DNA of 48,435 bases from Saprospiraceae bacterium (GTDB lineage: Bacteria > Bacteroidota > Bacteroidia > Chitinophagales > Saprospiraceae), in NCBI GenBank assembly GCA_036503755.1, contig DASXWI010000080.1:1-48435 (forward strand), read 5' to 3'. This document shows, piece by piece, positions 10,486 through 28,100 of this stretch (the first letter of the stretch is position 1; the number at the start of each line of letters is the position of its first letter). Position numbers and translations under genes: made by a program. The notes below the pieces were generated by a model, which made no database searches, was not told where the DNA came from, and was given only the letters and a program-made list of their open reading frames with translations.

Positions 10486-10515
10486 TTAACATGTTAATTT
10501 ATTGAAAATCAATAA
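10486..10515. promoter_or_regulatory. Two adjacent perfect palindromes, TTAACATGTTAA and TTATTGA-AAA-TCAATAA, in a 488-bp AT-rich divergent intergenic region
   Basis: Read directly: 10486-10497 and 10499-10515. The region lies between the divergent ctaA and dtd genes. Confidence 0.3.
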
Positions 10516-10806
10516 TATATAATGGTTATCACCATTTCATCCCAAAATGTATATAATGCAATATGTTTAATAATAATTTTTTAAATATGTGTATAAAGCA
10601 CCCTCTAACTCTACAGTTGTTAAACAACGCATCCATTTTTAATGCGGAATTCAATCATTACGATCTTTCCAAACAAGTTACCTACACATCTCTTTGATGA
10701 AGTGTTGATAAAATAAAAATAAACAGGGTTGAATGGATAGCCTTTACGTGTTATAATTAGCTTTAATGTTTATAAATATCCTTCAGAAAACGCCCAAAAG
10801 GTCCTC

Positions 10807-11588: not shown

Positions 11589-11598
11589 AGATTACTAC

Positions 11599-12339: not shown

Positions 12340-12499
12340 AGTAAAGTGGCTAAAGTATGTGCTCCTAAGATAGTTGATTTGTCTAGGATTCCGTTATGGT
12401 GGGTGACCAGGGATACATATTTCACCAGACCCCAAACGACCGTTTTTAGGAAAGTAAATATTCATGTTATCTTTCGGGGCTCTAACAAAATATAAAGGC

Positions 12500-14604: not shown

Positions 14605-15945
14605 ATGGAAGTGTTCCTCGAGAAGACAATTATTTATTCCATTGTAGCAGGGCTCATTATGCTGACCCTGTATATTTATGTAAGAAAACTTCAAAGTACA
14701 ACCAGAAAAACAGAAGCCAAGATCCATAAAGCGAAAGAGGAGGGATTACATGAGCCCGTCTCGCTTCATCCGGAAATAGATGTGAATACCTGCATTCAAA
14801 GCGGAGCTTGTATAGAGGCTTGTCCGGAAAAAGAAATCATTGGCATCCGGAATGGGAAAGCAACACTGATCAATGCATCACGATGTGTGGGGCATGGGGC
14901 TTGTTTCCATGCATGTCCGGTTGAAGCTATTTCCCTTGTCATTGGAACAGAAAAAAGAGGAGTAGATCTCCCGCATATTAAGCAAGATTTTGAAACCAAC
15001 GTTAAAGGCATTTATATAGCCGGCGAACTTGGCGGGATGGGGTTGATTAAGAATAGTGTTGAACAAGGCAAGCAAGCCGTGAACAATATCGCCCGTGCGG
15101 TTTCGAAAGCAAAAGAAACAGAATATGACCTGGTGATTGTTGGTGCAGGACCCGCAGGAATTTCTGCCTCCCTCGAAGCTAAAAAGCAAGGATTAAAATG
15201 TATTACACTTGAGCAGGATACACTTGGAGGTACGGTCTTTTCTTTTCCAAGATCCAAGATTGTGATGACCTCCCCGATGGATCTCCCTTTGTTCGGAAAA
15301 GTAAAACTGACAGAAACTAAAAAATCTGAACTACTTGATCTGTGGAACAAAGTATTAGGGAACAATCAAATAGTGATAAAGGAAAACACCAAGGTTGAAT
15401 CCATTTCAAAAGCCGGCGAACATTTTAGAATAGTGGTAAATGAGGGAGAAGAATATATCACCAAATCGGTTCTGCTAGCCATTGGAAGAAGAGGTTCACC
15501 CAGAAAACTAAATGTGGCAGGGGAACATCTGGAAAAGGTAGCCTATCGTCTGTTAGAACCGGAATTGATTGAAGGGAAAAATATCGTCGTTGCCGGAGGC
15601 GGTGATTCAGCAATTGAGGCGGCACTCTCCTTGGCGGATCATAACAAAGTAGTACTTACCTACCGGGGGGAAGCGTTTCAACGAATTAAACCAAAGAACA
15701 GTGAGAAAATAAACCAGGCGATCGCAGATCAGAAAATAGACGTCATCTTCAATTCAACTATAGCCTTAATAGAGAAAGAGAATGTAACCCTGACACTTCC
15801 AAATAACGATAAGGTTAAGATACCTAATGACCTGGTTTATATTTTTGCAGGAGGAGAATTGCCAACACAGTTTTTACAAAAAGCAGGAATTGAAATTACG
15901 ACCCGATTTGGACATGCGCTGTTGAAACATGGGAAAAACAGGTAA
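14605..15945 (+). CDS. Membrane-anchored ferredoxin-like domain fused to a thioredoxin-reductase-type FAD/NAD(P)H oxidoreductase with no redox CxxC
   Basis: I prefer the ATG at 14605, 1 nt after the upstream stop. One N-terminal TM helix is followed by a basic stretch. There are two Fe-S-like motifs, CIQSGACIEACP and CVGHGACFHACP. FAD motif DLVIVGAGPAGISAS; NAD(P)H motif KNIVVAGGGDSAIEAA. Confidence 0.75.
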   Translation: MEVFLEKTIIYSIVAGLIMLTLYIYVRKLQSTTRKTEAKIHKAKEEGLHEPVSLHPEIDVNTCIQSGACIEACPEKEIIGIRNGKATLINASRCVGHGACFHACPVEAISLVIGTEKRGVDLPHIKQDFETNVKGIYIAGELGGMGLIKNSVEQGKQAVNNIARAVSKAKETEYDLVIVGAGPAGISASLEAKKQGLKCITLEQDTLGGTVFSFPRSKIVMTSPMDLPLFGKVKLTETKKSELLDLWNKVLGNNQIVIKENTKVESISKAGEHFRIVVNEGEEYITKSVLLAIGRRGSPRKLNVAGEHLEKVAYRLLEPELIEGKNIVVAGGGDSAIEAALSLADHNKVVLTYRGEAFQRIKPKNSEKINQAIADQKIDVIFNSTIALIEKENVTLTLPNNDKVKIPNDLVYIFAGGELPTQFLQKAGIEITTRFGHALLKHGKNR

Positions 15946-15946
15946 T

Positions 15947-17794
15947 ATGCTCAGAACGAAAACATATTTCTTTTTTTGGTGCTTCCTTCTTTCAGGGCTA
16001 ATCGTCGTTTTATATAGTGGAAATGCATGTGGTCAGATATCACCGGGAGATCTTTCCAATCCTCATGCCCATCTTGAGGGAATACTCAACTGCACCAAGT
16101 GCCATGTATTGGGTGAAAAAGTAACCAACGAAAAATGTCTTGATTGCCACAAAGAAATCAAATCGCGTGTTGATCAGAAAAAGGGATACCATGCTTCGGC
16201 AGAGGTAACCGGAAAGGATTGTTTTTCCTGTCATAGCGATCATCATGGAAGGCAGTTTGAAATCATACGTTTTGACACAGAAAAATTCAATCACCAGCTT
16301 ACAGGATATAAACTAACCGGTGCCCATGCTAAGGTAGATTGTAAAGCTTGTCACAAGGATGAAAGAATAGAATCTGCTGAGCTTCGAAAGAAAGAGGAGA
16401 CCTATCTTGGTTTAAAAAACGAATGTGTAGCCTGTCATAAAGATGTCCACAGAAACACACTTTCTACGGATTGCAAATCTTGTCACAACACAGATGCTTT
16501 CGCGCCTGCTACGCTGTTTGACCATGCTAAAACAGACTTTCCGCTCAAAGGCAAACACAAAGAAGCGGATTGTAACCGTTGCCATGAAGTAACCTTCGAA
16601 AACAGTGCACTCTATCAGCGGTTTTCAGGTGTCCCGTTTAATAGTTGTGTAGTCTGCCATGATGATGTACATCATGGCCGCCTTGGAACAGATTGTAAAG
16701 AATGTCATACCGAAACATCCTTTACTGTCTTTGCGGGCAAGAGTACTTTCAACCATAGCGAAACCGATTTTCCATTACTAGGCAAACATAGAATACTCGA
16801 TTGCGCAGCATGTCATAAAACAGGAGCGGAGACCACTGCAGATAGGGTTTTCAAGGATTATTCAGCAAAGGATTTCAACGCCTGTATAACATGCCATGAT
16901 GATGTTCATGAATCAAGACTTGGTACAGATTGCAGGAGGTGTCATACCGAAGAGTCCTTTCAAAAACAAAGGAATGCCGAAAACTTTGATCACACCCTGA
17001 CAGGATATGTGCTTGAAGGGAAACACAAGAAGGTGGATTGTAAATCCTGCCATACATCCAAAATGACAGATCCGCTTCTTCACAATCGTTGTGCAGACTG
17101 TCATGAGGATTTTCATAAAGGTCAGTTCATCAACGAAACCAAAAATCCAGACTGCAGGATTTGTCACAATACAGAAGGATTTTCAGGTTCTGTGTATACC
17201 ATTGAAATGCACAATGAAGGTTCTTTTCCTTTAACGGGTGCACACCTGGCGACACCATGCAATGCGTGTCACCAAAAAAATGATGAATGGACATTTAGAA
17301 ATATAGGTACTCAATGTGTCGATTGTCACACGGATTTACACGAAGGTTTTCTGTCGGAGAAATACTATCCCAAGAAATCATGTAACCAATGTCATATACC
17401 TGATGCCTGGACAGAAGTAGATTTTGAACACCAACAAACCGGATTCAAACTTGAAGGAAAGCATTTGCAAACCTCCTGCACAACGTGCCACAAGTCAGAT
17501 CCTGTTGAAAAAAGTAAAATTCCTTTTACAGGCCTCAATACTGAATGTACAAGCTGTCATGATAACGCCCATGATCGCCAATTTGAGATTGACGGCGTTA
17601 CAGATTGTAGACGTTGCCATTTATTTGAAACATGGAAGCCAAGCCAGTTTGATCATAACACCGCAAGGTTTGTATTGGATGGAAAACACAAACAGGTTGA
17701 TTGCCGTGAATGCCATCGATCTGAAACAATTGATGGAAGGGAAATCATCCAATACAAACTTGATGATTTCACTTGCGCGGCGTGTCACCTTTAA
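15947..17794 (+). CDS. Multiheme cytochrome c with 23 CXXCH motifs, built from cytochrome c7/c3-like repeats
   Basis: I counted 23 CXXCH in about 615 aa. The recurring unit is CxxCHxDVHxxxLGxDCxxCH...FxHxxTxFxLxGKHxxxxCxxCH. Signal peptide MLRTKTYFFFWCFLLSGLIVVLYSGNAC (possible lipobox). The ATG at 15947 lies 1 nt after the upstream stop; the track start at 15929 would overlap. Confidence 0.9.
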   Translation: MLRTKTYFFFWCFLLSGLIVVLYSGNACGQISPGDLSNPHAHLEGILNCTKCHVLGEKVTNEKCLDCHKEIKSRVDQKKGYHASAEVTGKDCFSCHSDHHGRQFEIIRFDTEKFNHQLTGYKLTGAHAKVDCKACHKDERIESAELRKKEETYLGLKNECVACHKDVHRNTLSTDCKSCHNTDAFAPATLFDHAKTDFPLKGKHKEADCNRCHEVTFENSALYQRFSGVPFNSCVVCHDDVHHGRLGTDCKECHTETSFTVFAGKSTFNHSETDFPLLGKHRILDCAACHKTGAETTADRVFKDYSAKDFNACITCHDDVHESRLGTDCRRCHTEESFQKQRNAENFDHTLTGYVLEGKHKKVDCKSCHTSKMTDPLLHNRCADCHEDFHKGQFINETKNPDCRICHNTEGFSGSVYTIEMHNEGSFPLTGAHLATPCNACHQKNDEWTFRNIGTQCVDCHTDLHEGFLSEKYYPKKSCNQCHIPDAWTEVDFEHQQTGFKLEGKHLQTSCTTCHKSDPVEKSKIPFTGLNTECTSCHDNAHDRQFEIDGVTDCRRCHLFETWKPSQFDHNTARFVLDGKHKQVDCRECHRSETIDGREIIQYKLDDFTCAACHL

Positions 17795-17878
17795 CTGAAT
17801 AATTCGTAGTAAACCAGGCTCATACATATAGTACCCCCTTCTTTGAGCGGCAAGATGGGTAAACCAATCAAAGATTTA

Positions 17879-17909
17879 TTGAAAAATACAGACTGAATAT
17901 TTACATTTG
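17879..17909 (+). promoter_or_regulatory. Candidate Bacteroidota sigma-A promoter: TTG (17879-17881), 20-bp spacer, TACATTTG (17902-17909)
   Basis: Matches the published -33 TTTG / -7 TAnnTTTG pattern. It lies about 120 bp upstream of the 61-heme gene in a 234-bp intergenic gap. Confidence 0.25.
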
Positions 17910-18028
17910 TAATCCACACCACAGGAAGTATTCAAAAAATACGTCCAAAAGCCTTACCCATATTCAATTTCTATCCTCGTCGGAGTTCCGGCAGGGCAGG
18001 ATTTGTTTATGGGTTATATCTAAATGGG

Positions 18029-21000
18029 ATGAACCGGATAAAAGGTGTTGTGAGTGGAATCTTGATGTTGTGCGCCTATACGTACATAGGCGGGCAATCT
18101 CCGCATGGTCAGGAACTCCGGATCAGTTGTGATGCCTGCCATACTTCTGAAGGTTGGAATATTAACAAAGACTCCATAGCGTTCCTCCACAACACAACTA
18201 CATTTCCACTAGAAGGCCAACACGAAGTAATTGACTGTAGACAATGTCATACCTCACTTGAATTTAAAAAAGCTGAATCCAATTGTGCGTCATGCCACCT
18301 TGATATTCATCAGAATACTGTAGGAGATGAATGCGCCAGGTGCCATGATTCCAACACCTGGCTTGTTAACAATATAGCGGAGATCCATCGGCAGATTTCT
18401 TTCCCACTTCAAGGTGCGCATGCTGTTGCCAACTGTGTAGAGTGTCATACTTCAGATTCAGAATTAAGATTTGACCCGATCGCGTCAGATTGCTATAGTT
18501 GTCACCAGGATGATTATGGAGCTACCACAAACCCCGAACATCAGAAAGCTGGATTTTCAACGGACTGCATTACCTGCCACCAGGTAGATGCTTTTGCCTG
18601 GGATGCTGAAGGGATTAACCACGATTTCTTTCCGCTAACTGCGGGTCACCAAATTGATGAATGTGCGAAGTGTCACACCGGAGCGGATTACACTAAAATT
18701 TCACCCGAGTGCATTACTTGTCATGAACAGGATTATCTGGCAACTACCAATCCAAATCATCAGGTTGCAGGGATAAGCACTAATTGTGTGGAATGCCATA
18801 CAACACAACCGGATTGGAAACCAGCCGACTTCCGGGAACACGACAATCTTTATTTTCCAATATATAGTGGAGCACACAAAGGAACCTGGGACCAATGTTT
18901 AGCGTGCCATACGGATCCAAATAATTATACCAGTTTTACCTGTATATCCTGTCATGCTAATCCGGATACTGATAACGAACATAGCGGAGTGTTTGGATAT
19001 TCATACAACAGCACAGCATGCCTGGCATGTCACCCAAATGGGGAGAAGGAGGGCTCGTTTAATCATGACAACACCAACTTTGCTTTGACAGGTGCACACA
19101 CGATGGTGGAATGCCTTCAATGCCACAGCAATGGATTTACAGGGACGCCAACAGCTTGTTTTGCCTGCCATGAACCGGACTTTAATCAATCTACCAACCC
19201 AAACCACTCAAGTCTAGGACTTTCGACAGATTGTGTTTCATGTCACACCACGGATCCTGAATGGAACCCGGCTTCATTTGACAATCATAATGAATTTTAT
19301 GTGTTGAATGGTGCTCATGCCATCATAGCCAATCAGTGTGCATCGTGTCATAACGGAGATTATAATAACACGCCATCCACATGCGTGGGTTGTCACCAGG
19401 AGGATTATAATCAGACCACAACTCCATCGCATACCGCGCTATCCTTTTCAACAGAGTGCAGCATGTGTCACAATGAAAATGCGTGGGTGCCATCCTCCTT
19501 TGATCATGACGGCCAGTATTTTCCGATTTATAGCGGATCACACCAGGGAGAATGGGCTGATTGTATTGATTGTCATACCACACCAGGAAATTTTGCACTA
19601 TTTACTTGTGTGACTTGCCATGCCAATCCGGAAACCACGGAAGAACATACCGGAGTCGCCGGTTATCTCTACAACAGCAATGCCTGTCTTGCGTGTCATC
19701 CAAATGGAGAAGCAGATGGTGCCTTTGATCATAGTACCACCAATTTTCCACTGACGGGTGCGCATCAAACAGTTGATTGTTTCCTGTGCCATGTTAGTGG
19801 CTTTGAAGGAACGCCAACAGATTGTCAAAGCTGTCACACTCCTGATTTTAACCAGGCCTCAAACCCTAATCATAACGCCCTTGGTTTTTCTATTGATTGT
19901 GCCACATGCCACACTACAGCGCCTGGGTGGAATCCTGCGTCTCTCGACAATCACAATGATTATTATGTACTATCCGGAGCACATGCTGTAGTAGCCAATC
20001 AATGTGCATCCTGCCACAATGGTGATTATCTCACCACACCTAATACTTGCTCAGGTTGTCATCAGGAAGATTTCAATCAAACGGTAAACCCGCCGCACCT
20101 GGCTCTTCAGTTTTCAACAGATTGCGCAAGTTGCCATAGTGAATCTGCCTGGACACCTTCAACATTTGAACACGATGTGCAATATTTCCCGATTTATTCA
20201 GGAGCGCATCAGGGAGCCTGGACACAATGCAATGAATGCCACACCACACCAGGAAATTATTCACTTTATACATGCACAACCTGCCATACTAGTCCTGAAA
20301 CAGATGAAGAACATGCTGGTGTGAACGGCTTTATTTTTAACAGCACAGCTTGTCTTGCCTGTCATCCAACCGGGGAAAGTGATGTTAATTTTGATCACAA
20401 CACCACCTCCTTTCCATTGACAGGTGGACACAATGGACCCACATGCCTGGAGTGCCACGCTACAGGATTTGAAGGAACCCCGACAGAATGTAGCGCATGC
20501 CATCTTGATGATTTCAACCAGGCCATCAATCCAAACCATTTGACGCTGGGCATATCAAATGATTGCGCATCGTGTCATACCACTGAACCGGGATGGTCAC
20601 CAGCATCGTTTGCTGTACACAATGATTATTATCCATTTAATGGTGCACATATCCCAATAGCAAATCAATGTGCTACCTGTCATAACGGAGACTACAATAC
20701 TACACCAAACACTTGTGCAGGTTGCCACCAGGAAGATTATAATCAAACAACGGATCCATCGCACCTGGCACTTCAGTTTTCACAAGATTGCGCAAGTTGT
20801 CATTCGGAAAACGCATGGGAACCATCAACCTACGATCATGATGCACAGCACTTCCCGATTTACAGCGGATCCCATCAGGGAGTCTGGACACAATGCAATG
20901 AATGCCACACCACACCAGGAAATTATACTTTGTTTACCTGTGTCACTTGCCATACCAATCCTGAAACCAATGATGAACATGCCGGGGTGAATGGCTATTC

Positions 21001-22606
21001 ATACAACAGCAATGCATGCCTGGCTTGTCATCCTAATGGAGAGGGTGAGTTTGGTTTTGATCACAACAACACCAGCTTTCCACTTACGGGTGCCCATACC
21101 ACTATAAACTGCCTGGATTGTCATGCCAATGGATATGAAGGAACACCAACTGATTGTGCGGCATGCCATACAACACATTACAACGAAAGTACCAATCCAA
21201 ACCATAGTGCACTTGGCATTCCAACAGACTGCGTTTCTTGTCACACGACAGCTCCTGAATGGAATCCGGCTGCCTTTCCGCTCCATAACAATTATTACAC
21301 ACTAGCAGGAGCACATTCCTTAATTGCAGATCAATGTGTCACTTGTCATCAGGGCGATTATAACAACACTCCTAATACTTGCGTCGGTTGTCATCAAGCG
21401 GATTACAATCAAACAACCAACCCCAACCATTTAACCTTACAAATCTCCACGGATTGTGCTAGTTGTCATTCAGAAAGCAACTGGATACCTGCAAGTATGT
21501 CCAATCATAATGATTATTATGTTCTCCAAGGTGCGCATGCTCCTATTTCAAATGAATGTGCGCAATGTCATAATGGAAATTATAACAACACTCCAAATAC
21601 CTGTTATGGCTGTCATCAGGAAGATTATGAGCAAGCTAATAATCCTTCACATCTATCACTTGGATTTGGAACCGACTGTACGACTTGTCACACAGAGACA
21701 GCGTGGTCACCGGCAGAATACACCGATCACGATGACCAATATTTCCCCATATACAGTGGTGGGCACGAGGGAGCATGGGATCAGTGTAATGACTGCCACA
21801 CCAATCCAAACAACTACTCCATATATACCTGTGTGACTTGTCACACCAGCGGTGAAACTGGCCAGCAACATGTCGGAGTCAACGGCTATTTTTATGAGAG
21901 TGGTGCATGTCTCGCATGTCATCCCGATGGAGATACACAAGGATCATTCAATCACAATGATTCTGATTTTCCACTGACAGGGGCACATAATACGGTAGCC
22001 TGTATAGAATGTCACAGCAATGGCTATCAGAACACCCCCACGGCATGTAGTGCCTGTCATACGCCAGATTTCAACGGGTCAACCAATCCAAACCATAATT
22101 CCCTGGGATTATCAATGGAGTGTGTGACGTGTCACACTACAGCTCCTGAGTGGAACCCGGCTTTATTTCCAGATCATAATGATTATTATCCGCTGGTAGG
22201 GGCGCATGCCGCGATATCAGATCAATGCGTCACGTGTCACAATGGAAACTATAATAACACACCAAACACGTGTGTTGGCTGCCACCAATCTGAATACAAT
22301 AACACGAACGATCCTGATCACCAGGCAGCGCAATTCCCAACCAGTTGTGAAACCTGTCATAATCAAAATGCCTGGGTTCCATCCACCTGGGATCATGATG
22401 ATCTCTATTTCCCGATTTACAGCGGGAAACATGAAGATGAATGGAATCAATGTAATGACTGTCACACCAATCCAAATAATTATTCTGTGTTTACCTGTAT
22501 CACGTGTCATCAGCAAAATGAAACCGATGAGGATCATGATGAAGTAGGTGGATATCAATACAACAGTAGCGCTTGCCTGGCGTGTCACCCGGATGGCGAA
22601 GACTAA
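18029..22606 (+). CDS. Giant multiheme cytochrome c with 61 CXXCH motifs in 1525 aa
   Basis: ATG start with signal peptide MNRIKGVVSGILMLCAYTYIGGQ. By hand count, the motifs fall in six regions:
- N-terminal region, aa 1-342: 13
- module 343-564: 9
- module 565-785: 9
- module 786-1007: 9
- module 1008-1304: 12
- module 1305-1525: 9
As far as I can see, every Cys outside the signal peptide lies in a CXXCH. No T9SS C-terminal domain is present. Confidence 0.92.
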   Translation: MNRIKGVVSGILMLCAYTYIGGQSPHGQELRISCDACHTSEGWNINKDSIAFLHNTTTFPLEGQHEVIDCRQCHTSLEFKKAESNCASCHLDIHQNTVGDECARCHDSNTWLVNNIAEIHRQISFPLQGAHAVANCVECHTSDSELRFDPIASDCYSCHQDDYGATTNPEHQKAGFSTDCITCHQVDAFAWDAEGINHDFFPLTAGHQIDECAKCHTGADYTKISPECITCHEQDYLATTNPNHQVAGISTNCVECHTTQPDWKPADFREHDNLYFPIYSGAHKGTWDQCLACHTDPNNYTSFTCISCHANPDTDNEHSGVFGYSYNSTACLACHPNGEKEGSFNHDNTNFALTGAHTMVECLQCHSNGFTGTPTACFACHEPDFNQSTNPNHSSLGLSTDCVSCHTTDPEWNPASFDNHNEFYVLNGAHAIIANQCASCHNGDYNNTPSTCVGCHQEDYNQTTTPSHTALSFSTECSMCHNENAWVPSSFDHDGQYFPIYSGSHQGEWADCIDCHTTPGNFALFTCVTCHANPETTEEHTGVAGYLYNSNACLACHPNGEADGAFDHSTTNFPLTGAHQTVDCFLCHVSGFEGTPTDCQSCHTPDFNQASNPNHNALGFSIDCATCHTTAPGWNPASLDNHNDYYVLSGAHAVVANQCASCHNGDYLTTPNTCSGCHQEDFNQTVNPPHLALQFSTDCASCHSESAWTPSTFEHDVQYFPIYSGAHQGAWTQCNECHTTPGNYSLYTCTTCHTSPETDEEHAGVNGFIFNSTACLACHPTGESDVNFDHNTTSFPLTGGHNGPTCLECHATGFEGTPTECSACHLDDFNQAINPNHLTLGISNDCASCHTTEPGWSPASFAVHNDYYPFNGAHIPIANQCATCHNGDYNTTPNTCAGCHQEDYNQTTDPSHLALQFSQDCASCHSENAWEPSTYDHDAQHFPIYSGSHQGVWTQCNECHTTPGNYTLFTCVTCHTNPETNDEHAGVNGYSYNSNACLACHPNGEGEFGFDHNNTSFPLTGAHTTINCLDCHANGYEGTPTDCAACHTTHYNESTNPNHSALGIPTDCVSCHTTAPEWNPAAFPLHNNYYTLAGAHSLIADQCVTCHQGDYNNTPNTCVGCHQADYNQTTNPNHLTLQISTDCASCHSESNWIPASMSNHNDYYVLQGAHAPISNECAQCHNGNYNNTPNTCYGCHQEDYEQANNPSHLSLGFGTDCTTCHTETAWSPAEYTDHDDQYFPIYSGGHEGAWDQCNDCHTNPNNYSIYTCVTCHTSGETGQQHVGVNGYFYESGACLACHPDGDTQGSFNHNDSDFPLTGAHNTVACIECHSNGYQNTPTACSACHTPDFNGSTNPNHNSLGLSMECVTCHTTAPEWNPALFPDHNDYYPLVGAHAAISDQCVTCHNGNYNNTPNTCVGCHQSEYNNTNDPDHQAAQFPTSCETCHNQNAWVPSTWDHDDLYFPIYSGKHEDEWNQCNDCHTNPNNYSVFTCITCHQQNETDEDHDEVGGYQYNSSACLACHPDGED
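19055..22603 (+). repeat. Five tandem coding repeats (about 666 bp / 222 aa, nine hemes each) inside the 61-heme gene; the fourth carries an extra internal copy of about 222 bp
   Basis: The module consensus recurs in the protein: NFPLTGAH..C..CH..GF.GTPT.C..CH.PDFNQ..NPNH, then YFPIYSG.H.G.W..C..CHT, then ACLACHP.GE. An identical 43-nt run occurs at 20218-20260 and 20884-20926, exactly 666 bp apart. Confidence 0.9.
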
Positions 22607-22625
22607 TGAAAGCAGGAAGAAAGGA

Positions 22626-24254
22626 ATGAGATATTTTATTGCGCTTATTTGGATGATGATGACCTCTTTCGCATTACATGCACAGGAGAAAACCGACACG
22701 CTTGGAGGTGCAGTTACCTATCTTACTTCTCTGAGTGTTTATGTTAAGTTTCCGTCCACTACCTCCGTTTCAATAGGTGATACACTATTTGGGTTGGTCG
22801 ATGGAAAACTGCAACCATTTCTCACAGTCAAACATTTGTCATCTACTTCCTGTGTAGGAACACCCCTTACAACCATACCCATTCAAAAGGGTTCGCGGAT
22901 GTATGCAAGAATACGTAAAGAAGGGCCTTCCAAAAAAGATAGTATTGAAACCGACTCAATGTTTATCATACCAGAGGTTGTTATTTCGGATATCCAAAAG
23001 GAGGATGTAGCATCCATCAACAAACCGGTTGAATCCCACCCGATTGAAAAATCATCTTTTAAAGGAAGACTCTCGGCAGCAGCCTATATCAATTTTGCTG
23101 ATCACCCACAAAGCAATCAGCAAAGGATGCGTTATGTTTTAAATATGAATGCCCGACGTATCAATCACTCCGGTCTTTCTGCGGAGGTATATATGTCCTT
23201 CAGGCACACGCTAAATGAATGGGTAGAAGTCCAACAAGAGTTTCTCAGAGCCTTTAAAGTGTATAATCTGGCCCTGGAATATGATTTTAATCATGGAACA
23301 AAAATCTGGGCCGGACGAAAGATTAATTTCAACATTTCAAACATTGGTGCCATAGATGGTGTACAAGCCGAAAAGAAGTGGAAGAAATTCCTGGCAGGAG
23401 CTTTTGGAGGATCACGGCCGGATCATATGGACTATGGATTCAATCCGAACCTGGTGCAGTATGGTGGTTATTTCGGAAATAACATTGAACTCAAAAACGG
23501 GATAATCCAGAATACGTTGGCGCTGGTTGAGCAACGCAATAGTGGGATGACAGACCGGCGTTTTATGTATTTCCAACACATCAACTCATCGATACGAAGG
23601 GTATATCTTTTTACATCTTTCGAATTTGACTTATACACCCTGGATAACGAAAAACCTAAAAACACTTTTGATATCACCAGCTTGTATATTTCTGCTCGTT
23701 ATCGTGTTTCAGACAAGCTTTCTTTCTTTGCTTCTTTTGATTCAAGAAATAATGTTATTTATTATGAAACGTATAAACATTTTATCGACCAACTCCTGGA
23801 AGAAGAAACCCGGCAAGGATTCAGGCTTAGTTTTAATTACCGGCCCATCAAAAAAATGACAATTGGAGCTAATGCGGGATACAGATATCAGCAGGATACA
23901 CCGGGTAATTCAAAAAACCTGAATACATATATCACCTATTCAAGAATACCGGGATTAAATGTTTCAGCTACTGCAAACCTGACCCTGATTCATTCCCCAT
24001 ATCTCGATGGCATTGTTTATGGGGTAAGATTTTCCAGGGACATTGTAGAGGGTAAACTTTTTGGCGAATTTCAGTACCGGATTGCTGAATATGGATATAC
24101 GAATGTTGAAATCCCTATTCAACAAACCATCATGGGATTGAACCTCTCGTGGAGGATAACCAGGATGTTGTCTTTTTCCGCGAACTATGAAACAGAGATT
24201 CAGCATCAAAGGTGGAACAACCGGATTTACACTAATCTTATCCAACGCTTCTAA
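22626..24254 (+). CDS. Outer-membrane beta-barrel (porin-like) protein
   Basis: I prefer the ATG at 22626, which gives signal peptide MRYFIALIWMMMTSFALHAQ. The track start at 22548 is a GTG inside the cytochrome gene, and an alternative ATG lies at 22593. The second half has alternating hydrophobic/aromatic strands, and the C-terminal residue is Phe (NLIQRF). Confidence 0.6.
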   Translation: MRYFIALIWMMMTSFALHAQEKTDTLGGAVTYLTSLSVYVKFPSTTSVSIGDTLFGLVDGKLQPFLTVKHLSSTSCVGTPLTTIPIQKGSRMYARIRKEGPSKKDSIETDSMFIIPEVVISDIQKEDVASINKPVESHPIEKSSFKGRLSAAAYINFADHPQSNQQRMRYVLNMNARRINHSGLSAEVYMSFRHTLNEWVEVQQEFLRAFKVYNLALEYDFNHGTKIWAGRKINFNISNIGAIDGVQAEKKWKKFLAGAFGGSRPDHMDYGFNPNLVQYGGYFGNNIELKNGIIQNTLALVEQRNSGMTDRRFMYFQHINSSIRRVYLFTSFEFDLYTLDNEKPKNTFDITSLYISARYRVSDKLSFFASFDSRNNVIYYETYKHFIDQLLEEETRQGFRLSFNYRPIKKMTIGANAGYRYQQDTPGNSKNLNTYITYSRIPGLNVSATANLTLIHSPYLDGIVYGVRFSRDIVEGKLFGEFQYRIAEYGYTNVEIPIQQTIMGLNLSWRITRMLSFSANYETEIQHQRWNNRIYTNLIQRF

Positions 24255-24325: not shown

Positions 24326-25063
24326 ATGAAAACGTTTATATACCTCTTGTTATTAAGTGCCCTGGTTTGGTCATGTGATTCAAAACCAAAAGTCATTGAA
24401 TCGGTTGATGCCACTGAAGAAACACAACAAGATGCTTCTGATCCAAATGCATCAAAATTGCATAAGGTCGTAGTAGAAGAAGTCCTGCAGACATCAAAAT
24501 ATACATATCTGAACGTAACGGAAGATGGAGCGAAAATCTGGATTGCTGTGCCCAAAAAGGATGTTAAAGTCGGGGGTACGTATTATTACCGAGGTGGTTT
24601 GAAAAAGAACAATTTCAAGAGTGTGGAATTTGATCGTGTATTTGAAACATTATATCTCGTTTCCGATGTAAGTGAAGATCCGGGATTGGGCGGGATGACA
24701 GGCAGCAGCCCACATGGTGGAAAAGCAGAGGAACCTCAACTTGATCAAACCACTAAATTAGATCCACCACCAGGAGGCATTTCAATTGCCGAATTATTTA
24801 AGAACCGTCAGAAATATGAGGGACAAACCGTCAAGATCAAAGGAAGGTGTGTTAAACTCAACACGAACATCATGAACCGCAACTGGATTCATCTTCAGGA
24901 TGGATCTATGACCGATGAGCAAATTGATCTTACTGTGACGACTACAGACAAAGTAGCATTAGGTGAAATAGTAACCTTTGAAGGAAAGATTACCCTGAAT
25001 AAAGATTTTGGTGCAGGGTATAAATATGAAATCATCATGGAAGAAGCCCATCTCTTACCATAA
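24326..25063 (+). CDS. Lipoprotein with two OB-fold-like halves, function unknown
   Basis: The ATG at 24326 gives MKTFIYLLLLSALVWSCDSK (lipobox Cys). Two halves have similar beta-rich patterns (TYLNVTEDGAKIWIAVP... and TVKIKGRCVKLNTNIMNRNWIHLQDGS...). The OB-fold call is pattern-based only. Confidence 0.45.
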   Translation: MKTFIYLLLLSALVWSCDSKPKVIESVDATEETQQDASDPNASKLHKVVVEEVLQTSKYTYLNVTEDGAKIWIAVPKKDVKVGGTYYYRGGLKKNNFKSVEFDRVFETLYLVSDVSEDPGLGGMTGSSPHGGKAEEPQLDQTTKLDPPPGGISIAELFKNRQKYEGQTVKIKGRCVKLNTNIMNRNWIHLQDGSMTDEQIDLTVTTTDKVALGEIVTFEGKITLNKDFGAGYKYEIIMEEAHLLP

Positions 25064-25129: not shown

Positions 25130-28100
25130 ATGAAACGTTTATTTAATTCTTTTTTCTCTACCAGCGCAGCAGGCCTTTATATGATCCTGTTTGCCCTGGC
25201 CATCGGTGTGGCTACGTTTGTGGAAAACGATTTTGGTACCAGTGCAGCCCAAAAGGTCATCTTTAAGGCCAGATGGTTTGAACTCCTCCTGGTTCTTTTT
25301 GGTATCTCTATAGCAGCCAATATTGTTCGATATAAAATGGTCCGTCAGAAAAAATGGGCCATCCTTACATTCCACGCTTCTATCTTAATCATATTACTGG
25401 GAGCAGGTATCACCCGATATTTCAGTTACGAGGGGATGATGCATATTCGTGAAGACAGCACATCAAACACATTTATTTCGGCAGATACCTATCTCAACTT
25501 TGAAGCTAAACAACATGGCAAGAAATTCCTTTTTAATGAACCTGTCCTTTTTGCATCCCTTGGTAAAAACAAATTCAAGGAAACCTACCAGATCGGAAAT
25601 GATATCATAGACGTCGAATTAGATGCCTTTATACCCAATCCGGAAAATACACTGGAGGCGATACCCGATGGTAACGCGGTTTTAAAACTAGTGATTGCCG
25701 GAATGAATGGACGCGAAGAATATTATCTCGAAGAAGGAGATTTCGTCAACCTGAATGGAACCTGGTTTAATTTCGGCAACCCGGAGCAACCCCAGGCAAT
25801 CAATATGTATTACCGGAATGACTCCCTGGTGATGAAATCACCTGAAGTCCTTGCGCATATGGTAATGGCTACACAAGCGAAAGACACTATTTACCCCGGA
25901 GCGTATGTACCCTTAGTGATCCGGTCACTGTATTCCAATGCCAACATCAATTTTGTGATTGGTGATTTTAATCCAAGCGCGAAGCTGATGATGAAATCGG
26001 CTGGACCCAAAATGAAAAGTGAAAGCATCGCGGCACTCAAATTGAAAATCAGCATCAACGGGACCCCTTCAGATATCTATGTATACGGAAACAAAGGGAT
26101 AGAAGGAAAACCGGAAAAAGCAAGGGCCGGTGATACAGAGCTTTCCATTTCTTATGGTGCCAAACAGATCAGCCTCCCATTCTCTCTGAAGTTGCGTGAT
26201 TTTATTCTTGAGCGGTATCCAGGAACGAACAGTGCTTCCTCCTACGCTAGCGAAGTGACACTGATCGATCCAGCAAAAGGGATCAATAAGGAGCAACGCA
26301 TCTATATGAACAACATCCTGGATTATGGAGGATATAGGTTTTTCCAATCTTCCTTTGACCAGGATGAATTGGGGACCGTTCTTAGTGTAAATCATGATTT
26401 CTGGGGTACATGGATTTCGTATATCGGCTATGCCTTACTGACGATAGGGCTGATTCTCACCTTATTCAGTAAAAAGAGCAGGTTCAGTGAAATTTCAAGG
26501 AAACTGGATGAAATCCGCCAGGTAGAAAAGAAAGGTGCCATGTCGGGAATCACTATAATGATGTTGTTCCTTTCTACCGGGTCACTTTTTGGCAACAGCA
26601 TCAACGAATCACCACGACATAGTGTGTCCAAAGCACATGCTGCCTTGTTTGGCCGCCTTGTGGTCCAGGATGATAATGGAAGGATGAAACCAATGAATAC
26701 CCTTTCCAGTGAAGTGATGCGTAAAGTGGCAAGGAAAGAAAGTTTGTTTGGACTTACGGCGGATCAAATCTTCCTCGGCATGACGTTGTATCCGGAAGAG
26801 TGGACGCAGATGCCGATGATTAAAATCGGATCAAACGAAGAGATCAGAAAACTCATTCCTGCCAAAGGAGAATTAGCTTCTTTCAATGATTTTTTTACAT
26901 CCAGTGGTCAATATGTTTTACGGGAACAAGTCCGCAGGGCGTATAGCTTGCAGCCAATTGACAGAACATTGATGGATAAGGAAATCATGAAGATCGATGA
27001 GCGTGTCAATATCTGTAACATGATCTTTAGTGGAGCAATGGCGCGGATATATCCTATAGAAAACCATCCAGGGGATCATTGGATTTCTCCAGCAGATGTA
27101 TTTAAACAAACTGCCGATATCAGTCCGGATCCATTTGTCAGGGGGTTTTTTCCAACATACGTTACTGCTGTACAGGAAGCCATGGCAGATGGAAACTGGA
27201 GTAAGGCGGATCAACAGGTCGAAGCACTTCAACAATTTCAGCATGCTAAAGGTGGAGACATTGTGGTTTCGCAGCGAAGGATTGATATGGAAATCCTGCT
27301 CAACAAGATGAATGTCTTTTCAAGACTGAGTAAGGGCTATGGATTAATTGGGCTCGTCTTTTTGATATTGTTTTTCACGCAGGTTTTTAAACCCGGCCTG
27401 AATCTAAAGACACCAACGCGAATCACCTTTTTTATTCTGGCTGCTTTCTTTCTCCTGCACACGGCAGGGCTGGGGATCAGGTGGTATGTTTCCGGTCGTG
27501 CGCCATGGAGCAATGGGTATGAGTCCATGATTTATATAGGGTTCACCACGGTATTGGCCGGATTGATTTTTGCAAGAAATTCATTAGGCGGATTAACAGC
27601 TACAAGCATATTGGCATCTACCATTCTCATGGTGGCAGGGTTGAGCTGGCTTGATCCCGAAATCACCCCATTAGTTCCAGTCCTTAAATCGTATTGGTTA
27701 ACTATTCATGTATCCATGGAAGCTGGTAGTTATGGTTTTTTAATGTTGGGAGCGATCATTGGGTTGTTGAATCTTATTCTCATGATCTTTCTCAACAAGT
27801 CAAATGAGACACGCTTATTCCGGACGATTAAGGAGATGACCTATGTTAGTGAGATGACCCTGATCGGCGGATTGATCATGGTCAGTATTGGGACTTACCT
27901 GGGTGGAGTATGGGCCAATGAATCGTGGGGAAGATACTGGGGATGGGATGCCAAAGAAACGTGGGCATTGGTGACTATACTTGTGTATGCGTTTATTCTT
28001 CACATGAGATTTATACCAGGATTAAGAGGATTGTATGCATTCAATGTAGCGTCCTTGTTTGGATTTGCATCCGTCATGATGACATATTTTGGAGTGAACT

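What the first reader, a model, noticed from the sequence alone, without database searches (positions are those of the whole stretch)
18029..22606. A 1525-aa cytochrome c with 61 CXXCH motifs, about one heme site per 25 residues
By hand count the protein has 61 canonical CXXCH motifs. Apparently every Cys outside the signal peptide lies in such a motif, and there is almost no hydrophobic core sequence, which is the signature of a heme-packed wire.

The architecture has two parts:
- The first ~140 aa (about 5 hemes) are c7/c3-like, for example FLHNTTTFPLEGQHEVIDCRQCH and CASCHLDIHQNTVGDECARCH. This matches the repeat style of the upstream 23-heme protein.
- The rest is a different nine-heme module type, rich in NPNH, DYNQT and YFPIYSGxHxGxW motifs.

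Many additional His residues could supply bis-His ligation. The protein ends exactly at a module boundary (ACLACHPDGED) and has no T9SS C-terminal domain, although a T9SS cargo with that domain is encoded in this window at 38724-42671. Any surface exposure would therefore need another route, such as the adjacent barrel. To my knowledge, cytochromes with more than 50 heme motifs are rare.
Basis: seen in the sequence. Interest (0 to 1): 0.88.

Follow-up and report, generated by a model that had tools for sequence, protein, structure and literature searches.

The report
61-heme cytochrome wire, PCC3-like cluster
The gene is real and encodes a protein built almost entirely of 61 heme-binding sites, probably a long single-chain electron wire. 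It belongs to a large, uncharacterised Bacteroidota family and sits in a conserved gene cluster that looks designed to move electrons from cytoplasmic NAD(P)H across both membranes.

Summary
**Observation: confirmed.** ORF 18029-22606(+) is intact and has 61 CXXCH. Its only other Cys is in the signal peptide. It has 63 further His, about 25 aa per heme, and no assembly artefact.

**Architecture.**
- It is 1 heme plus 20 triheme units. A 13-heme N-terminal head is followed by ABC, ABC, ABC, ABBC, ABC.
- Each unit keeps three invariant non-motif His, so all hemes can be bis-His and no catalytic site is apparent.
- In 92 of 94 complete relatives the heme count is 1+3n, ranging from 19 to 109.
- The window protein is at the short end for Saprospiraceae.

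**Not a rarity.** There are hundreds of relatives across Bacteroidota, including cultured strains and one plasmid. A 2024 paper already noted Saprospiraceae cytochromes with more than 100 heme motifs.

**Context.** A conserved seven-gene cassette runs in this order:
1. a 5-TM inner-membrane protein carrying the exact PCC3/PCC4 signature (2x WX3HX13H plus SGXXG);
2. a membrane-anchored FeS + FAD/NAD(P)H protein;
3. a 23-heme cytochrome;
4. the 61-heme cytochrome;
5. a roughly 22-strand outer-membrane barrel;
6. a lipoprotein;
7. CcsBA.

**Best reading (about 0.55).** This is a PCC3-like trans-envelope conduit in which the 61-heme protein is the variable-length distal wire. Its location and the direction of electron flow are inferred, not shown. 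The main rival is a periplasmic electron capacitor.

The parts
13734..14603 (+). 289-aa inner-membrane protein (IMP) with about 5 TM helices, a putative di-heme b transmembrane electron carrier.
   Evidence: It has W91-x3-H95-x13-H109 on TM3, S131GIIG135 on TM4 and W258-x3-H262-x13-H276 on TM5. This is exactly the PCC3/PCC4 IMP signature of PMC5566968. All 120 of 120 homologs keep it. Pfam gives only sub-threshold hits, to DUF4405 (5/5 members) and Ni_hydr_CYTB. The gene is syntenic in nearly all related loci.
14605..15945 (+). 446-aa protein with an N-terminal TM anchor, a ferredoxin-like FeS domain and an FAD/NAD(P)H oxidoreductase domain. It is predicted to face the cytoplasm.
   Evidence: Pfam finds Fer4 families plus Pyr_redox_3/Pyr_redox_2. 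The best NCBIfam hit is YpdA/TrxR-like but far below cut-off. Invariant features are two C-x5-C-x3-CP motifs, GAGPAG and GGGDSA, with no CxxC disulfide. The ATG lies 1 nt after the IMP stop.
15929..17794 (+). 23-heme cytochrome c of fixed size class (20 or 23 hemes in relatives). It has a signal peptidase I signal and is predicted to be periplasmic.
   Evidence: It has 23 CXXCH and 50 His and matches Pfam Cytochrome_C7 and c3. The conserved mature N-terminus is Q[LI]SPG[DE]L..H..LEG with no conserved Cys, so it is not a lipoprotein. The likely start is ATG 15947.
18029..22606 (+). The 61-heme cytochrome c (1525 aa) named in the finding.
   Evidence: The signal peptide is residues 1-22, and the mature N-terminus QSPHG fits the Bacteroidetes +1 Gln pattern.
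18098..19033 (+). Conserved N-terminal 13-heme head (residues 24-335).
   Evidence: The heme spacing 36/59, 16, 16, 34, 19, 25, 32, 16, 25, 37, 15, 26 is nearly invariant in 101 relatives. Invariant residues are listed in A4. The head is about 30% identical to the triheme repeats of the 23-heme protein.
19034..22588 (+). Variable repeat region of 48 hemes in triheme units. ABC runs 19034-19699, ABC 19700-20365, ABC 20366-21031, ABBC 21032-21922 and ABC 21923-22588. A PDGED tail follows.
   Evidence: Unit alignment and identity matrix: same-type units are 53-76% identical and cross-type units about 30%. There are three invariant non-motif His per unit across 53 sequences. The DNA period is 666 nt at 63-76% identity.
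22593..24254 (+). Outer-membrane beta-barrel protein with a small N-terminal beta domain, a disordered linker and a barrel of about 22 strands. It ends ...QRF.
   Evidence: AF2 gives mean pLDDT 84.2, with barrel strands over residues 152-549 of the 550-aa query. Foldseek matches only generic outer-membrane barrels; the best TM-scores, 0.44-0.51, are to the FimD/PapC usher pore, and MtrB is not in the top 50. There is no Pfam, NCBIfam or PDB sequence hit. The start is ATG 22593 (14-nt overlap with the cytochrome) or ATG 22626 (19-nt gap).
24326..25063 (+). 245-aa lipoprotein with two beta-rich domains, no heme motif and unknown role.
   Evidence: The lipobox Cys followed by pKVIE is conserved across 50 orthologs. 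Pfam gives only a faint GW hit. RefSeq names the Emticicia ortholog a GW dipeptide domain-containing protein. The gene is syntenic.
25130..28246 (+). Fused ResB-CcsA (CcsBA), the System II cytochrome c synthase.
   Evidence: Pfam finds ResB and Cytochrom_C_asm. NCBIfam CcsB scores 177.7 bits against a cut-off of 187.6. The gene is adjacent to the cassette, on either strand, in many loci.

Best explanation
The 61-heme protein is the long, variable-length multiheme cytochrome of a PCC3-like porin-cytochrome gene cluster found across Bacteroidota.

**Proposed electron path**
1. Cytoplasmic NAD(P)H reduces the FAD of the membrane-anchored flavo-FeS protein.
2. Electrons pass through its FeS centres to two b hemes held by the 5-TM inner-membrane protein, and so across the inner membrane.
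3. They enter the fixed-length 23-heme periplasmic cytochrome, which would be about 20 nm long if extended.
4. They then enter the 61-heme cytochrome, whose conserved 13-heme head docks with the 23-heme protein and/or the roughly 22-strand outer-membrane barrel.
5. The 48-heme repeat region carries them onward, about 50-60 nm if extended, to an acceptor beyond the outer membrane such as metal oxides, humics, other cells or distant O2.

The protein itself is a pure all-bis-His electron relay with no catalytic site. Its length is set by gain and loss of triheme units.

**Shown**
- The motif architecture.
- The conservation and synteny of the seven genes.
- The barrel fold prediction.
- The IMP signature.

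**Inferred**
- Heme loading and b-heme binding.
- NAD(P)H as the donor.
- Outward direction of flow.
- Any exposure of the 61-heme protein outside the outer membrane.
For: - **Architecture.** The protein has 61 CXXCH at 25 aa per heme, with three invariant distal His per triheme. It exceeds the Pfam Cytochrome_C7, c3 and MtrC-II/IV gathering scores.
- **Synteny.** The same seven genes flank relatives that are only 43-57% identical, while the outer flanks differ. This holds across 77 genome loci from Saprospiraceae, Lewinellaceae, Prolixibacteraceae, Draconibacterium, Mariniphaga and Flavobacteriaceae, and on the Emticicia plasmid pEMTOL02.
- **Match to PCC3.** The IMP carries the defining PCC3/PCC4 signature in 120 of 120 homologs. 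PCC3 is defined as a porin, a periplasmic MHC of about 21 hemes, a large repeat-rich MHC with 22-39 aa per heme, and an IMP of about 300 aa.
- **Fixed versus variable length.** The first cytochrome has 20 or 23 hemes everywhere. The second ranges from 19 to 109, always 1+3n (92 of 94 complete proteins). That fits one partner spanning a fixed gap and the other not.
- **Barrel.** It is predicted with confidence (pLDDT 84, about 22 strands, Calpha radius about 20 A) and lies within 20 nt of the cytochrome's stop.
- **NAD(P)H link.** Distant IMP homologs on Qipengyuania and Alteromonas plasmids sit between a non-homologous FAD_binding_6 + NAD_binding_1 + Fer2 protein and a 7-heme cytochrome. The flavo-FeS / IMP / periplasmic cytochrome triad therefore recurs with unrelated flavoproteins.
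- **Heme attachment.** A dedicated CcsBA lies next to the cassette.
Against: - No experiment exists for this cassette or for PCC3 itself; its function is still hypothetical in the literature.
- The cytochrome has only a signal peptidase I signal, with no T9SS C-terminal domain and no lipobox. No known Bacteroidota route to the surface therefore applies, and threading a folded heme rod through a 22-strand barrel is unproven.
- PCC3 porins were predicted to be larger, with up to 42 TM regions.
- The barrel shows no specific similarity to MtrB.
- Sequence homology to proteobacterial PCC3 components could not be tested.
- The IMP's Pfam hits to b-type cytochrome families are sub-threshold, and it could be a quinol oxidase rather than a partner of the flavoprotein.
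- The AF2 model of a 12-heme piece was poor, so rod-like geometry is not shown.
- The host encodes heme A synthase and so appears aerobic, which makes the need for external acceptors unclear.
Confidence: 0.55

Rival explanations
1. Periplasmic electron capacitor. The 61-heme protein stays in the periplasm and stores electrons, about 84 per pair of cytochromes. This would buffer NAD(P)H/NAD(P)+ balance when O2 or other acceptors fluctuate, for example in activated-sludge flocs. The barrel and lipoprotein would serve only as a low-capacity outlet or an anchor.
For: - The protein has only a Sec / signal peptidase I signal, with no T9SS domain or lipobox.
- The closest solved design, Geobacter GSU1996, and its 27-heme relative GSU2210 are periplasmic polymers of triheme domains. 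They are interpreted as capacitors.
- Both Wasmund et al. and Hoover et al. raise capacitor roles.
- Tandem duplication of giant genes in Ca. Opimibacter would raise capacity.
Against: - A store does not need a dedicated, strictly syntenic 22-strand outer-membrane barrel and outer-membrane lipoprotein.
- The 13-heme head is strictly conserved while only the distal repeats vary. That suggests a docking end plus a reach-determining end.
- Nothing shows that a 60-100 nm rod fits usefully in a periplasm of about 25 nm.
Confidence: 0.22
2. The same conduit runs inward. It would take up electrons from Fe(II), minerals, cathodes or partner cells, as originally proposed for PCC3. The IMP would deliver them to the quinone pool or, by reverse flow, to NAD(P)+.
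For: - PCC3 was discovered in Fe(II) oxidisers and modelled as an uptake route to quinones.
- The IMP resembles quinone-reactive cytochrome b families at sub-threshold level.
- The host has an aerobic respiratory marker, CtaA, so O2 could be the terminal acceptor.
Against: - The conserved partner is an NAD(P)H-type flavo-FeS protein, not a quinone module.
- Reducing NAD(P)+ from bis-His c hemes against the membrane potential is energetically unfavourable (inference from standard potentials).
- The carriers are heterotrophic Bacteroidota, many of them fermentative, and none is a known lithotroph.
Confidence: 0.12
3. The cassette reduces extracellular O2 or metals for a non-respiratory purpose, such as making superoxide for predation or algicidal activity, or reducing Fe(III) for uptake. 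It would work as a split bacterial analogue of NOX/FRE enzymes, with the long cytochrome delivering electrons away from the cell.
For: - The two HX13H pairs on TM3 and TM5, together with an NAD(P)H flavoprotein, reproduce the NOX/FRE logic.
- NAD_binding_6, the ferric reductase type, hits the proteobacterial partner weakly.
- Many carriers are aerobic Saprospiraceae.
Against: - The IMP has no hit to Pfam Ferric_reduct.
- 84 hemes is an extravagant way to deliver single electrons.
- No phenotype data exist.
- This is a variant of the best explanation that differs only in the acceptor and the purpose.
Confidence: 0.08
4. The ORF is an assembly artefact or an untranslated relic.
For: It is highly repetitive and was called from a metagenome-type contig.
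Against: - The repeats are only 63-76% identical at the DNA level.
- An independent contig has the same length, no indels and only 5 aa changes.
- Hundreds of intact orthologs keep every Cys and His.
Confidence: 0.01

Closest known systems
PCC3 porin-cytochrome c gene cluster (He et al. 2017, PMC5566968; Hoover et al. 2023, PMC9900912)
   Same: - Same parts list: an outer-membrane barrel, a periplasmic MHC of about 21-27 hemes (23 here), and a larger repeat-rich MHC rich in T/S/A/G with 22-39 aa per heme and a variable heme count (10-85 reported; 61 here).
- Both have an IMP of about 300 aa with 5 TM helices, SGXXG on TM4 and WX3HX13H on TM3 and TM5, met exactly here.
- In both cases the function is only hypothesised.
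   Different: - PCC3 has been described only in Alpha-, Beta- and Gammaproteobacteria; this cluster is in Bacteroidota.
- This cluster adds a membrane-anchored FeS + FAD/NAD(P)H protein, a lipoprotein and usually CcsBA.
- The barrel here has about 22 strands, whereas PCC3 barrels were predicted with up to 42 TM regions.
- Sequence homology to PCC3 proteins was not testable here.
- Heme counts reach 109, or 172 if a frameshift in L003 is a sequencing error.
Saprospiraceae cytochromes with more than 100 heme motifs, noted by Wasmund et al. 2024 (PMC11495043)
   Same: Very probably the same protein family, since relatives are named Saprospiraceae or Ca. Opimibacter from Danish wastewater MAGs. 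That paper also speculates on extracellular electron transfer or a capacitor role.
   Different: The paper reports only motif counts and predicted secretion. It does not describe the triheme architecture, the 1+3n rule, the cassette, the PCC3 link or the spread beyond Saprospiraceae.
Geobacter 'nanowire' cytochromes GSU1996 and GSU0592 (12 hemes) and GSU2210 (27 hemes)
   Same: Each is a single polypeptide made of tandem triheme units with about 25 aa per heme. GSU1996 is an extended 12-nm rod. Pfam Cytochrome_C7 is matched.
   Different: - The NCBIfam nanowire_3heme model does not hit the 61-heme protein.
- The intra-unit spacing order differs: 31-35, 15, 25 here against about 24 and 14 in c7 (the latter from my own recollection).
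- All hemes here can be bis-His, whereas GSU1996 has one His-Met heme per domain.
- There are three alternating unit types here.
- This protein has 2 to 9 times more hemes and is linked to an outer-membrane barrel.
MtrCAB / MtoAB and Geobacter OmaB-OmbB-OmcB porin-cytochrome conduits
   Same: The logic is the same: a cytochrome chain passes through an outer-membrane barrel to link the periplasm and the exterior.
   Different: - There is no MtrB/PioB Pfam hit, and MtrB is absent from the top fold matches.
- The DmsE/MtrA model scores 78.8 bits against a cut-off of 192.
- There is no lipoprotein cytochrome.
- Input appears to come from an NAD(P)H-type flavoprotein rather than from a quinol dehydrogenase such as CymA.
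Hmc/Tmc transmembrane redox complexes of sulfate reducers, and NOX/FRE ferric-reductase-domain enzymes
   Same: In both, a periplasmic multiheme cytochrome is coupled through a membrane cytochrome b to a cytoplasmic FeS or flavin module. The two HX13H pairs match those of NOX/FRE.
   Different: - The HmcA model scores 59.7 bits against a cut-off of 400.
- There is no Ferric_reduct Pfam hit.
- The flavin/NAD(P)H domain is a separate TrxR/YpdA-like polypeptide.
- This comparison rests partly on general knowledge of those systems.

Membership tests
Multiheme cytochrome c (Pfam Cytochrome_C7 PF14522, Cytochrom_CIII PF02085, Cytochrom_c3_2 PF14537) | Multiple CXXCH motifs with a second axial His available for each heme. 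| tested here: met
   61 CXXCH and 63 further His. Three invariant non-motif His per triheme.
Multiheme cytochrome c (Pfam Cytochrome_C7 PF14522, Cytochrom_CIII PF02085, Cytochrom_c3_2 PF14537) | Profile score above the curated gathering threshold. | tested here: met
   169.1, 154.1 and 138.2 bits against cut-offs of 24.8, 22.9 and 25.
Multiheme cytochrome c (Pfam Cytochrome_C7 PF14522, Cytochrom_CIII PF02085, Cytochrom_c3_2 PF14537) | Export signal and a cytochrome c maturation system. | tested here: met
   N-terminal signal with a conserved AQ|SPHG-type junction. CcsBA lies at 25130-28246.
Multiheme cytochrome c (Pfam Cytochrome_C7 PF14522, Cytochrom_CIII PF02085, Cytochrom_c3_2 PF14537) | Covalent heme actually attached at the motifs. 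| not testable with these tools
   Needs heme staining, pyridine hemochrome assay or mass spectrometry.
PCC3 porin-cytochrome cluster (PMC5566968) | IMP of about 300 aa with 5 TM helices, SGXXG on TM4 and WX3HX13H on TM3 and TM5. | tested here: met
   289 aa. WLEFH-x13-H, SGIIG and WHVAH-x13-H in the right order. 120 of 120 homologs keep them.
PCC3 porin-cytochrome cluster (PMC5566968) | An outer-membrane beta-barrel gene in the cluster. | tested here: met
   AF2 pLDDT 84 with about 22 strands. Foldseek probability is 1.00 to outer-membrane barrels. This is smaller than most PCC3 porins, which have up to 42 predicted TM regions.
PCC3 porin-cytochrome cluster (PMC5566968) | A periplasmic MHC of about 21 (21/24/27) hemes, plus a second repeat-rich MHC with a low aa-per-heme ratio and variable heme number. 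| tested here: met
   23 hemes (20 in other orders) and 61 hemes at 25 aa per heme. Relatives range from 19 to 109.
PCC3 porin-cytochrome cluster (PMC5566968) | Sequence homology to the proteobacterial PCC3 components. | tested here: inconclusive
   No PCC3 reference sequences were available. The only hits are 21-25% identity IMP matches (E 1e-4 to 1e-7) to proteobacterial plasmid genes that lie in porin-less clusters.
PCC3 porin-cytochrome cluster (PMC5566968) | Extracellular location of the large MHC. | not testable with these tools
   It has only a signal peptidase I signal. Location needs experiment.
MtrCAB / MtoAB | MtrB/PioB-family barrel and a DmsE/MtrA-family decaheme cytochrome. | tested here: not met
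   The barrel has no Pfam hit and MtrB is not among the top 50 fold matches. TIGR03508 scores 78.8 and 47.3 bits against a cut-off of 192.2.
Geobacter c7-polymer cytochromes (NCBIfam TIGR04257 nanowire_3heme; GSU1996) | Triheme domain matching the nanowire_3heme model, with one His-Met heme per domain. | tested here: not met
   The 61-heme protein has no TIGR04257 hit at E <= 0.1, and the 23-heme protein scores 31.3 bits against a cut-off of 40. There is no conserved Met and there are three conserved His per unit.
T9SS cargo | C-terminal sorting domain (CHU_C or Por_Secre_tail). | tested here: not met
   Only cytochrome families hit, and the protein ends 5 residues after the last heme motif. 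The positive control at 38724-42671 hits CHU_C.
NOX/FRE ferric-reductase transmembrane domain (PF01794), tested on the IMP | Two HX13H (or HX12H) pairs on TM3 and TM5, and a match to the PF01794 profile. | tested here: inconclusive
   The His pairs are present and invariant. PF01794 gives no hit. Only sub-threshold hits to DUF4405 and Ni_hydr_CYTB appear.

The most novel reading that the evidence does not exclude
The cassette is a self-contained, quinone-independent machine for exporting electrons from NAD(P)H to the cell exterior. It would be a split NOX-like inner-membrane module coupled to a PCC3-like outer module. Its distal element would be a single-polypeptide nanowire whose reach is set digitally by gain and loss of triheme units: 19 to 109 hemes, possibly 172, or roughly 20 to over 100 nm. 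That length may be matched to envelope, sheath or floc geometry. Because the cassette also occurs on a plasmid, it would be a transferable electroactivity module for heterotrophic and fermentative Bacteroidota.
Probability: 0.3. Interest if true: 0.85.

Novelty: new variant of a known kind. Interest (0 to 1): 0.62.

Why it matters
- **Ecology.** If the model holds, many abundant heterotrophic Bacteroidota from wastewater flocs, marine particles and sediments have a dedicated route for discharging reducing power outside the cell. These organisms are not currently counted as electroactive. That would change how redox budgets in such systems are read.
- **Protein design.** Single chains with 61 to over 100 covalently wired hemes, built from a simple three-unit repeat, would be the longest known monomeric protein wires. 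The largest solved multiheme cytochrome has 16 hemes. They would be natural templates for bioelectronic materials.
- **Testability.** The PCC3 family has been known since 2017 but is functionally untested. This analysis identifies cultured carriers, including a plasmid-borne copy in a type strain (Emticicia oligotrophica DSM 17448) and Phaeodactylibacter xiamenensis KD52 with 82 hemes. It also gives a specific candidate for the electron input, the flavo-FeS protein.

Tried and rejected
- **Structure of a 12-heme ABCA segment.** AF2 with a 53-sequence alignment gave pLDDT 58.7, with unit C below 50. Foldseek against the PDB returned no match, so heme-chain geometry could not be assessed.
- **PDB sequence searches.** The whole protein, the ABCA profile, the barrel and the IMP gave nothing significant.
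- **Repeat and signal scans.** Tandem Repeats Finder found nothing because the repeats are too diverged. The sigma-70 promoter and terminator scan was at chance level and does not suit Bacteroidota.
- **Taxonomy of distant relatives.** The listing of cluster members on distant representatives returned one informative name, a Thermoanaerobaculia cytochrome c3 family protein.
- **Rejected: assembly artefact**.
- **Rejected: T9SS cargo or lipoprotein cytochrome**.
- **Rejected: membership of MtrCAB, HmcA or nanowire_3heme**.
- **Rejected: a heme-related role for the SPHG motif in the lipoprotein.** It is not conserved.
- **Self-correction.** I first read a TAATG stop/start overlap between the cytochrome and the barrel. 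That ATG is out of frame. The in-frame starts are 22593 and 22626.
- **Literature.** Searches for this cassette in Prolixibacteraceae, Draconibacterium and Phaeodactylibacter found nothing. A deep-sea chitin/EET paper was irrelevant, and a large-scale MHC survey does not mention Bacteroidota.

Full report
**1.

ORF 18029-22606(+) is uninterrupted and encodes 1525 aa.
- It has 61 CXXCH and 123 Cys. The only Cys outside a motif is C15, in the signal peptide.
- It has 124 His (61 in motifs, 63 others) and 6 Met. It has no variant heme motifs.
- Shuffling the same residues yields 0.86 motifs on average and 6 at most.
- Hydrophobic residues (ILVMFW) make up 15.7% of the protein. The protein is very acidic: D+E 174 against K+R 18, pI about 4.8.

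It is not an assembly artefact.
- The DNA repeats have a 666-nt period but are only 63-76% identical, and TRF reports nothing.
- An independent JGI contig (L082) is 99.57% identical over 10.2 kb with no indels. It carries the same-length ORF with 5 aa changes.

**2. Anatomy**

Heme spacing and self-alignment show that the unit is a triheme with spacings x, 15, 25-26.

There are three unit types:

| Type | Length | Hallmark |
|---|---|---|
| A | 71 aa | FPLTGAH |
| B | 75 aa | WNPASF..HNDYY.L.GAH |
| C | 76-78 aa | YFPIYSGxHxGxW |

- Same-type units are 53-76% identical. Different types are about 30% identical.
- The layout is: signal peptide; heme 1; three diverged units plus one C unit, which together with heme 1 form the 13-heme head (residues 24-335); then ABC, ABC, ABC, ABBC, ABC; then a PDGED tail.
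- Across 53 aligned 12-heme segments, every motif residue and exactly three further His per unit are invariant. No Met is conserved. All hemes can therefore be bis-His, and nothing suggests a catalytic penta-coordinate heme.
- The head is about 30% identical (E = 4e-27) to the triheme repeats of the upstream 23-heme protein.
- Pfam Cytochrome_C7, Cytochrom_CIII, c3_2 and MtrC/MtrF II-IV are all exceeded.
- The NCBIfam models for DmsE/MtrA, HmcA and QrcA are far below cut-off, and nanowire_3heme does not hit.

**3. The family**

- A search of 5.8 billion proteins gave 1895 hits at E <= 1e-10. The top 120 are 1450-2650 aa, are named only 'hypothetical protein', and come from Saprospiraceae, Lewinellaceae and Saprospirales MAGs.
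- Their motif counts are quantised: 58, 61, 64 ... 103, with 106/109 seen in L001. Of 94 complete proteins, 92 have a count of 1 mod 3.
- The head spacing is nearly invariant in 101 relatives.
- Searching 1.84 billion 50%-identity representatives with the head gave 898 clusters at E <= 1e-30 and 2436 at E <= 1e-10.
The closest are Chitinophagales and Ca. Opimibacter MAGs at about 70% identity.
- The same scan picked up cultured strains. Their heme counts come from my ORF analysis of the fetched loci:
  - Phaeodactylibacter xiamenensis KD52, 82 hemes
  - Draconibacterium aestuarii Z1-6, 28
  - Mariniphaga sediminis SY21, 22
  - Luteirhabdus pelagi, 19
  - Thermobacterium salinum, 19
- Outside Saprospiria the protein has 19-43 hemes. 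Inside, it has 49-109.
- The window protein is therefore an ordinary, rather short member of its clade.

**4. The neighbourhood is a conserved cassette**

Relatives only 43-57% identical have the same genes in the same order, with unrelated outer flanks. My ORF/BLAST table over 81 loci shows the same pattern across orders. The seven genes are:

- **(i) A 289-aa membrane protein.** It has no Pfam hit.
- **(ii) A TM-anchored FeS + FAD/NAD(P)H protein.** Pfam finds Fer4 families plus Pyr_redox_3. It has two C-x5-C-x3-CP motifs, GAGPAG and GGGDSA, and no CxxC. It lacks a Tat motif and has positive residues after the anchor, so it should face the cytoplasm (inference).
- **(iii) A cytochrome with 20 or 23 hemes.** It has a signal peptidase I signal and a conserved mature N-terminus, Q[LI]SPG..., with no conserved Cys.
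- **(iv) The variable cytochrome**, the subject of this finding.
- **(v) A protein of about 545 aa ending ...QRF.** AF2 (pLDDT 84.2) models a small N-terminal beta domain, a disordered linker and a barrel of about 22 strands. Foldseek matches only generic outer-membrane barrels, with the best TM-scores to the FimD/PapC pore, and MtrB is not among the top 50. The Murzin formula gives a Calpha radius of about 20 A, against 23.5 A for 26 strands.
- **(vi) A lipoprotein** with two beta domains and no heme motif.
- **(vii) Usually CcsBA**.

In the window the genes are tightly packed.
- Gaps or overlaps are 20 nt or less at three junctions.
- A 234-nt gap lies before the 61-heme gene. It contains a Bacteroidetes-type TAnnTTTG motif at 17902.

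**5. The link to PCC3**

He et al. 2017 (PMC5566968) defined 'PCC3' in Proteobacteria by four parts:
- a porin;
- a periplasmic MHC with a median of 21 hemes;
- a larger, repeat-rich 'extracellular' MHC rich in T/S/A/G. Its median is 34 hemes, with 63 in Amphritea and 85 in Agromonas, at 22-39 aa per heme;
- an IMP of about 300 aa with five TM helices, SGXXG on TM4 and WX3HX13H on TM3 and TM5, proposed to bind two b hemes.

The window's 289-aa protein has WLEFH95-x13-H109, S131GIIG and WHVAH262-x13-H276 in that order. All 120 homologs examined keep these features. Its Pfam hits to DUF4405 and prokaryotic cytochrome b561 are sub-threshold but consistent.

Hoover et al. 2023 report PCC3 periplasmic MHCs with 21, 24 or 27 hemes and extracellular ones with 10-35. 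They still treat the function, wire or capacitor, as hypothetical.

The window cassette therefore fits the PCC3 definition feature by feature, in a phylum where it has not been described. I could not test sequence homology to PCC3 proteins because no reference sequences were available.

**6. Evidence for the electron input**

A tblastn of the IMP against plasmids gave two kinds of result.
- **A full cassette on a plasmid.** Emticicia oligotrophica DSM 17448 plasmid pEMTOL02 carries ccsA, IMP, an 'NAD(P)-binding domain-containing protein', a 23-heme and a 40-heme 'cytochrome c3 family protein', the barrel and a 'GW dipeptide domain-containing protein'.
- **Distant IMP homologs in Proteobacteria.** On Qipengyuania citrea and Alteromonas macleodii plasmids, homologs at 21-25% identity keep the HX13H, SGFVG and WX3HX13H features. 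They sit between a 650-aa FAD_binding_6 + NAD_binding_1 + Fer2 protein and a 7-heme cytochrome.

So the triad of NAD(P)H-type flavo-FeS protein, 5-TM IMP and periplasmic multiheme cytochrome recurs with non-homologous flavoproteins. That argues the IMP works with a cytoplasmic NAD(P)H-linked partner. It resembles a NOX/FRE enzyme split into separate polypeptides.

**7. Mechanism proposed**

Electrons would pass from NAD(P)H to FAD, to FeS, to two b hemes across the inner membrane, to the 23-heme protein, to the head of the 61-heme protein, along the 48-heme repeat region, and finally to an external acceptor.

The supporting logic is as follows.
- The 20/23-heme partner has a fixed size. At about 1 nm per heme it would be 20-23 nm long. 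The scale comes from GSU1996, 12 hemes in 12 nm, and MtrA, 10 hemes in about 10 nm. That length is comparable to a periplasm, whose width I take from general knowledge.
- The second cytochrome varies fivefold in unit number while keeping its head. That is expected if one end docks and the other extends into unconstrained space.
- The outward direction is inferred from redox potentials and from the sign of the membrane potential.
- For fermentative or O2-limited heterotrophs, the pay-off would be regeneration of NAD(P)+.

The weak points are these.
- The only export signal is for signal peptidase I, so no known secretion route to the surface applies.
- Passage of a heme rod through a 22-strand barrel is unproven.
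- The host looks aerobic, since CtaA lies at 9257-10318.
- No experimental data exist.

I put this reading at about 0.55. The alternatives are a periplasmic capacitor (about 0.22), inward electron uptake (about 0.12), non-respiratory reductase or ROS use (about 0.08) and artefact (about 0.01).

**8. Novelty and interest**

- Giant multiheme cytochromes are already in print: 85 hemes in PCC3 (2017), and more than 100 in Methanoperedens, Saprospiraceae and Paludibaculum. The claim of rarity therefore fails, and this protein is not an outlier.
- Four things are not in the literature I could search:
  - the triheme A/B/C grammar and the 1+3n rule;
  - the Bacteroidota-wide seven-gene cassette;
  - its identification as PCC3-like with an added NAD(P)H flavo-FeS input;
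  - its presence in cultured strains and on a plasmid.
- I rate it a new variant of a known kind, with interest of about 0.6.

Noticed in passing
L003:5116-17947 (JGI 3300056999 contig Ga0558716_01906): Two adjacent cytochrome ORFs of 1638 aa (64 CXXCH) and 2648 aa (108 CXXCH) are separated only by a 1-nt frameshift inside an FPL-GAH motif. If that is a sequencing error, this is one ORF of about 4290 aa with 172 hemes, well above any count I found reported.
   Followed up: partly
L083 (NC_018749.1, Emticicia oligotrophica DSM 17448 plasmid pEMTOL02, record 78197-90781): The whole cassette (ccsA, IMP, flavo-FeS, 23-heme, 40-heme, barrel, GW lipoprotein) sits on a 100-kb plasmid of a cultured type strain, next to ParA and replication genes. 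It may therefore be horizontally mobile, and it is experimentally accessible.
   Followed up: partly
L005, L006, L007, L012 (Chitinophagales and Ca. Opimibacter MAGs, the closest relatives): These loci carry two or three giant cytochrome genes in tandem between the 23-heme gene and the barrel, for example 106 + 34 + 58 hemes. The window has only one.
   Followed up: no
window 20884-20917: Of the 21 nucleotide differences between the window and the independent contig L082 inside the cytochrome gene, 16 cluster in 34 nt. This looks like a gene-conversion tract between repeat units.
   Followed up: no
window 14605-15945 (residues about 63-104 of the flavo-FeS protein): Both ferredoxin-like motifs are C-x5-C-x3-CP rather than CxxCxxCxxxCP, so there are only six conserved Cys. 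This suggests two 3-Cys clusters or non-Cys ligands; S66 and H97 are invariant.
   Followed up: no
L085 (Alteromonas macleodii plasmid pAlt83_a, locus 9911-13394) and L084 (Qipengyuania citrea plasmid): A small module of FNR-type flavo-[2Fe-2S] protein, 5-TM IMP homolog and 7-heme cytochrome has no porin. In Alteromonas it lies directly upstream of a [NiFe] hydrogenase operon, and in Qipengyuania it lies near copper-resistance genes.
   Followed up: partly
window 17795-18028: A 234-nt intergenic gap precedes the 61-heme gene, inside an otherwise tightly packed operon. It contains a Bacteroidetes-type -7 promoter motif (TACATTTG at 17902). The background rate of this motif is 0.33 per kb on this strand, so the gap may hold an internal promoter.
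   Followed up: partly
window 18095 and 16034 region; family-wide: Both cytochromes have a predicted signal-peptide cleavage just before a Gln (…G|QSPHG, …G|QISPG; AQ|SPHG and AQ|LSPG in relatives). This fits the Bacteroidetes 'Q-rule' of N-terminal pyroglutamate, which I recall from general knowledge.
   Followed up: no
window 29442-32381 (-) and 3530-4975 (+): A 979-aa ORF with a signal peptide and a 481-aa membrane-like ORF have no Pfam match at E <= 1e-5. The 979-aa ORF lies next to an ECF-type sigma factor at 32499-33083.
   Followed up: no
window 9257-10318 (-) and 38724-42671 (-): The window encodes heme A synthase (COX15/CtaA), which marks an aerobic respiratory chain.
   Followed up: yes
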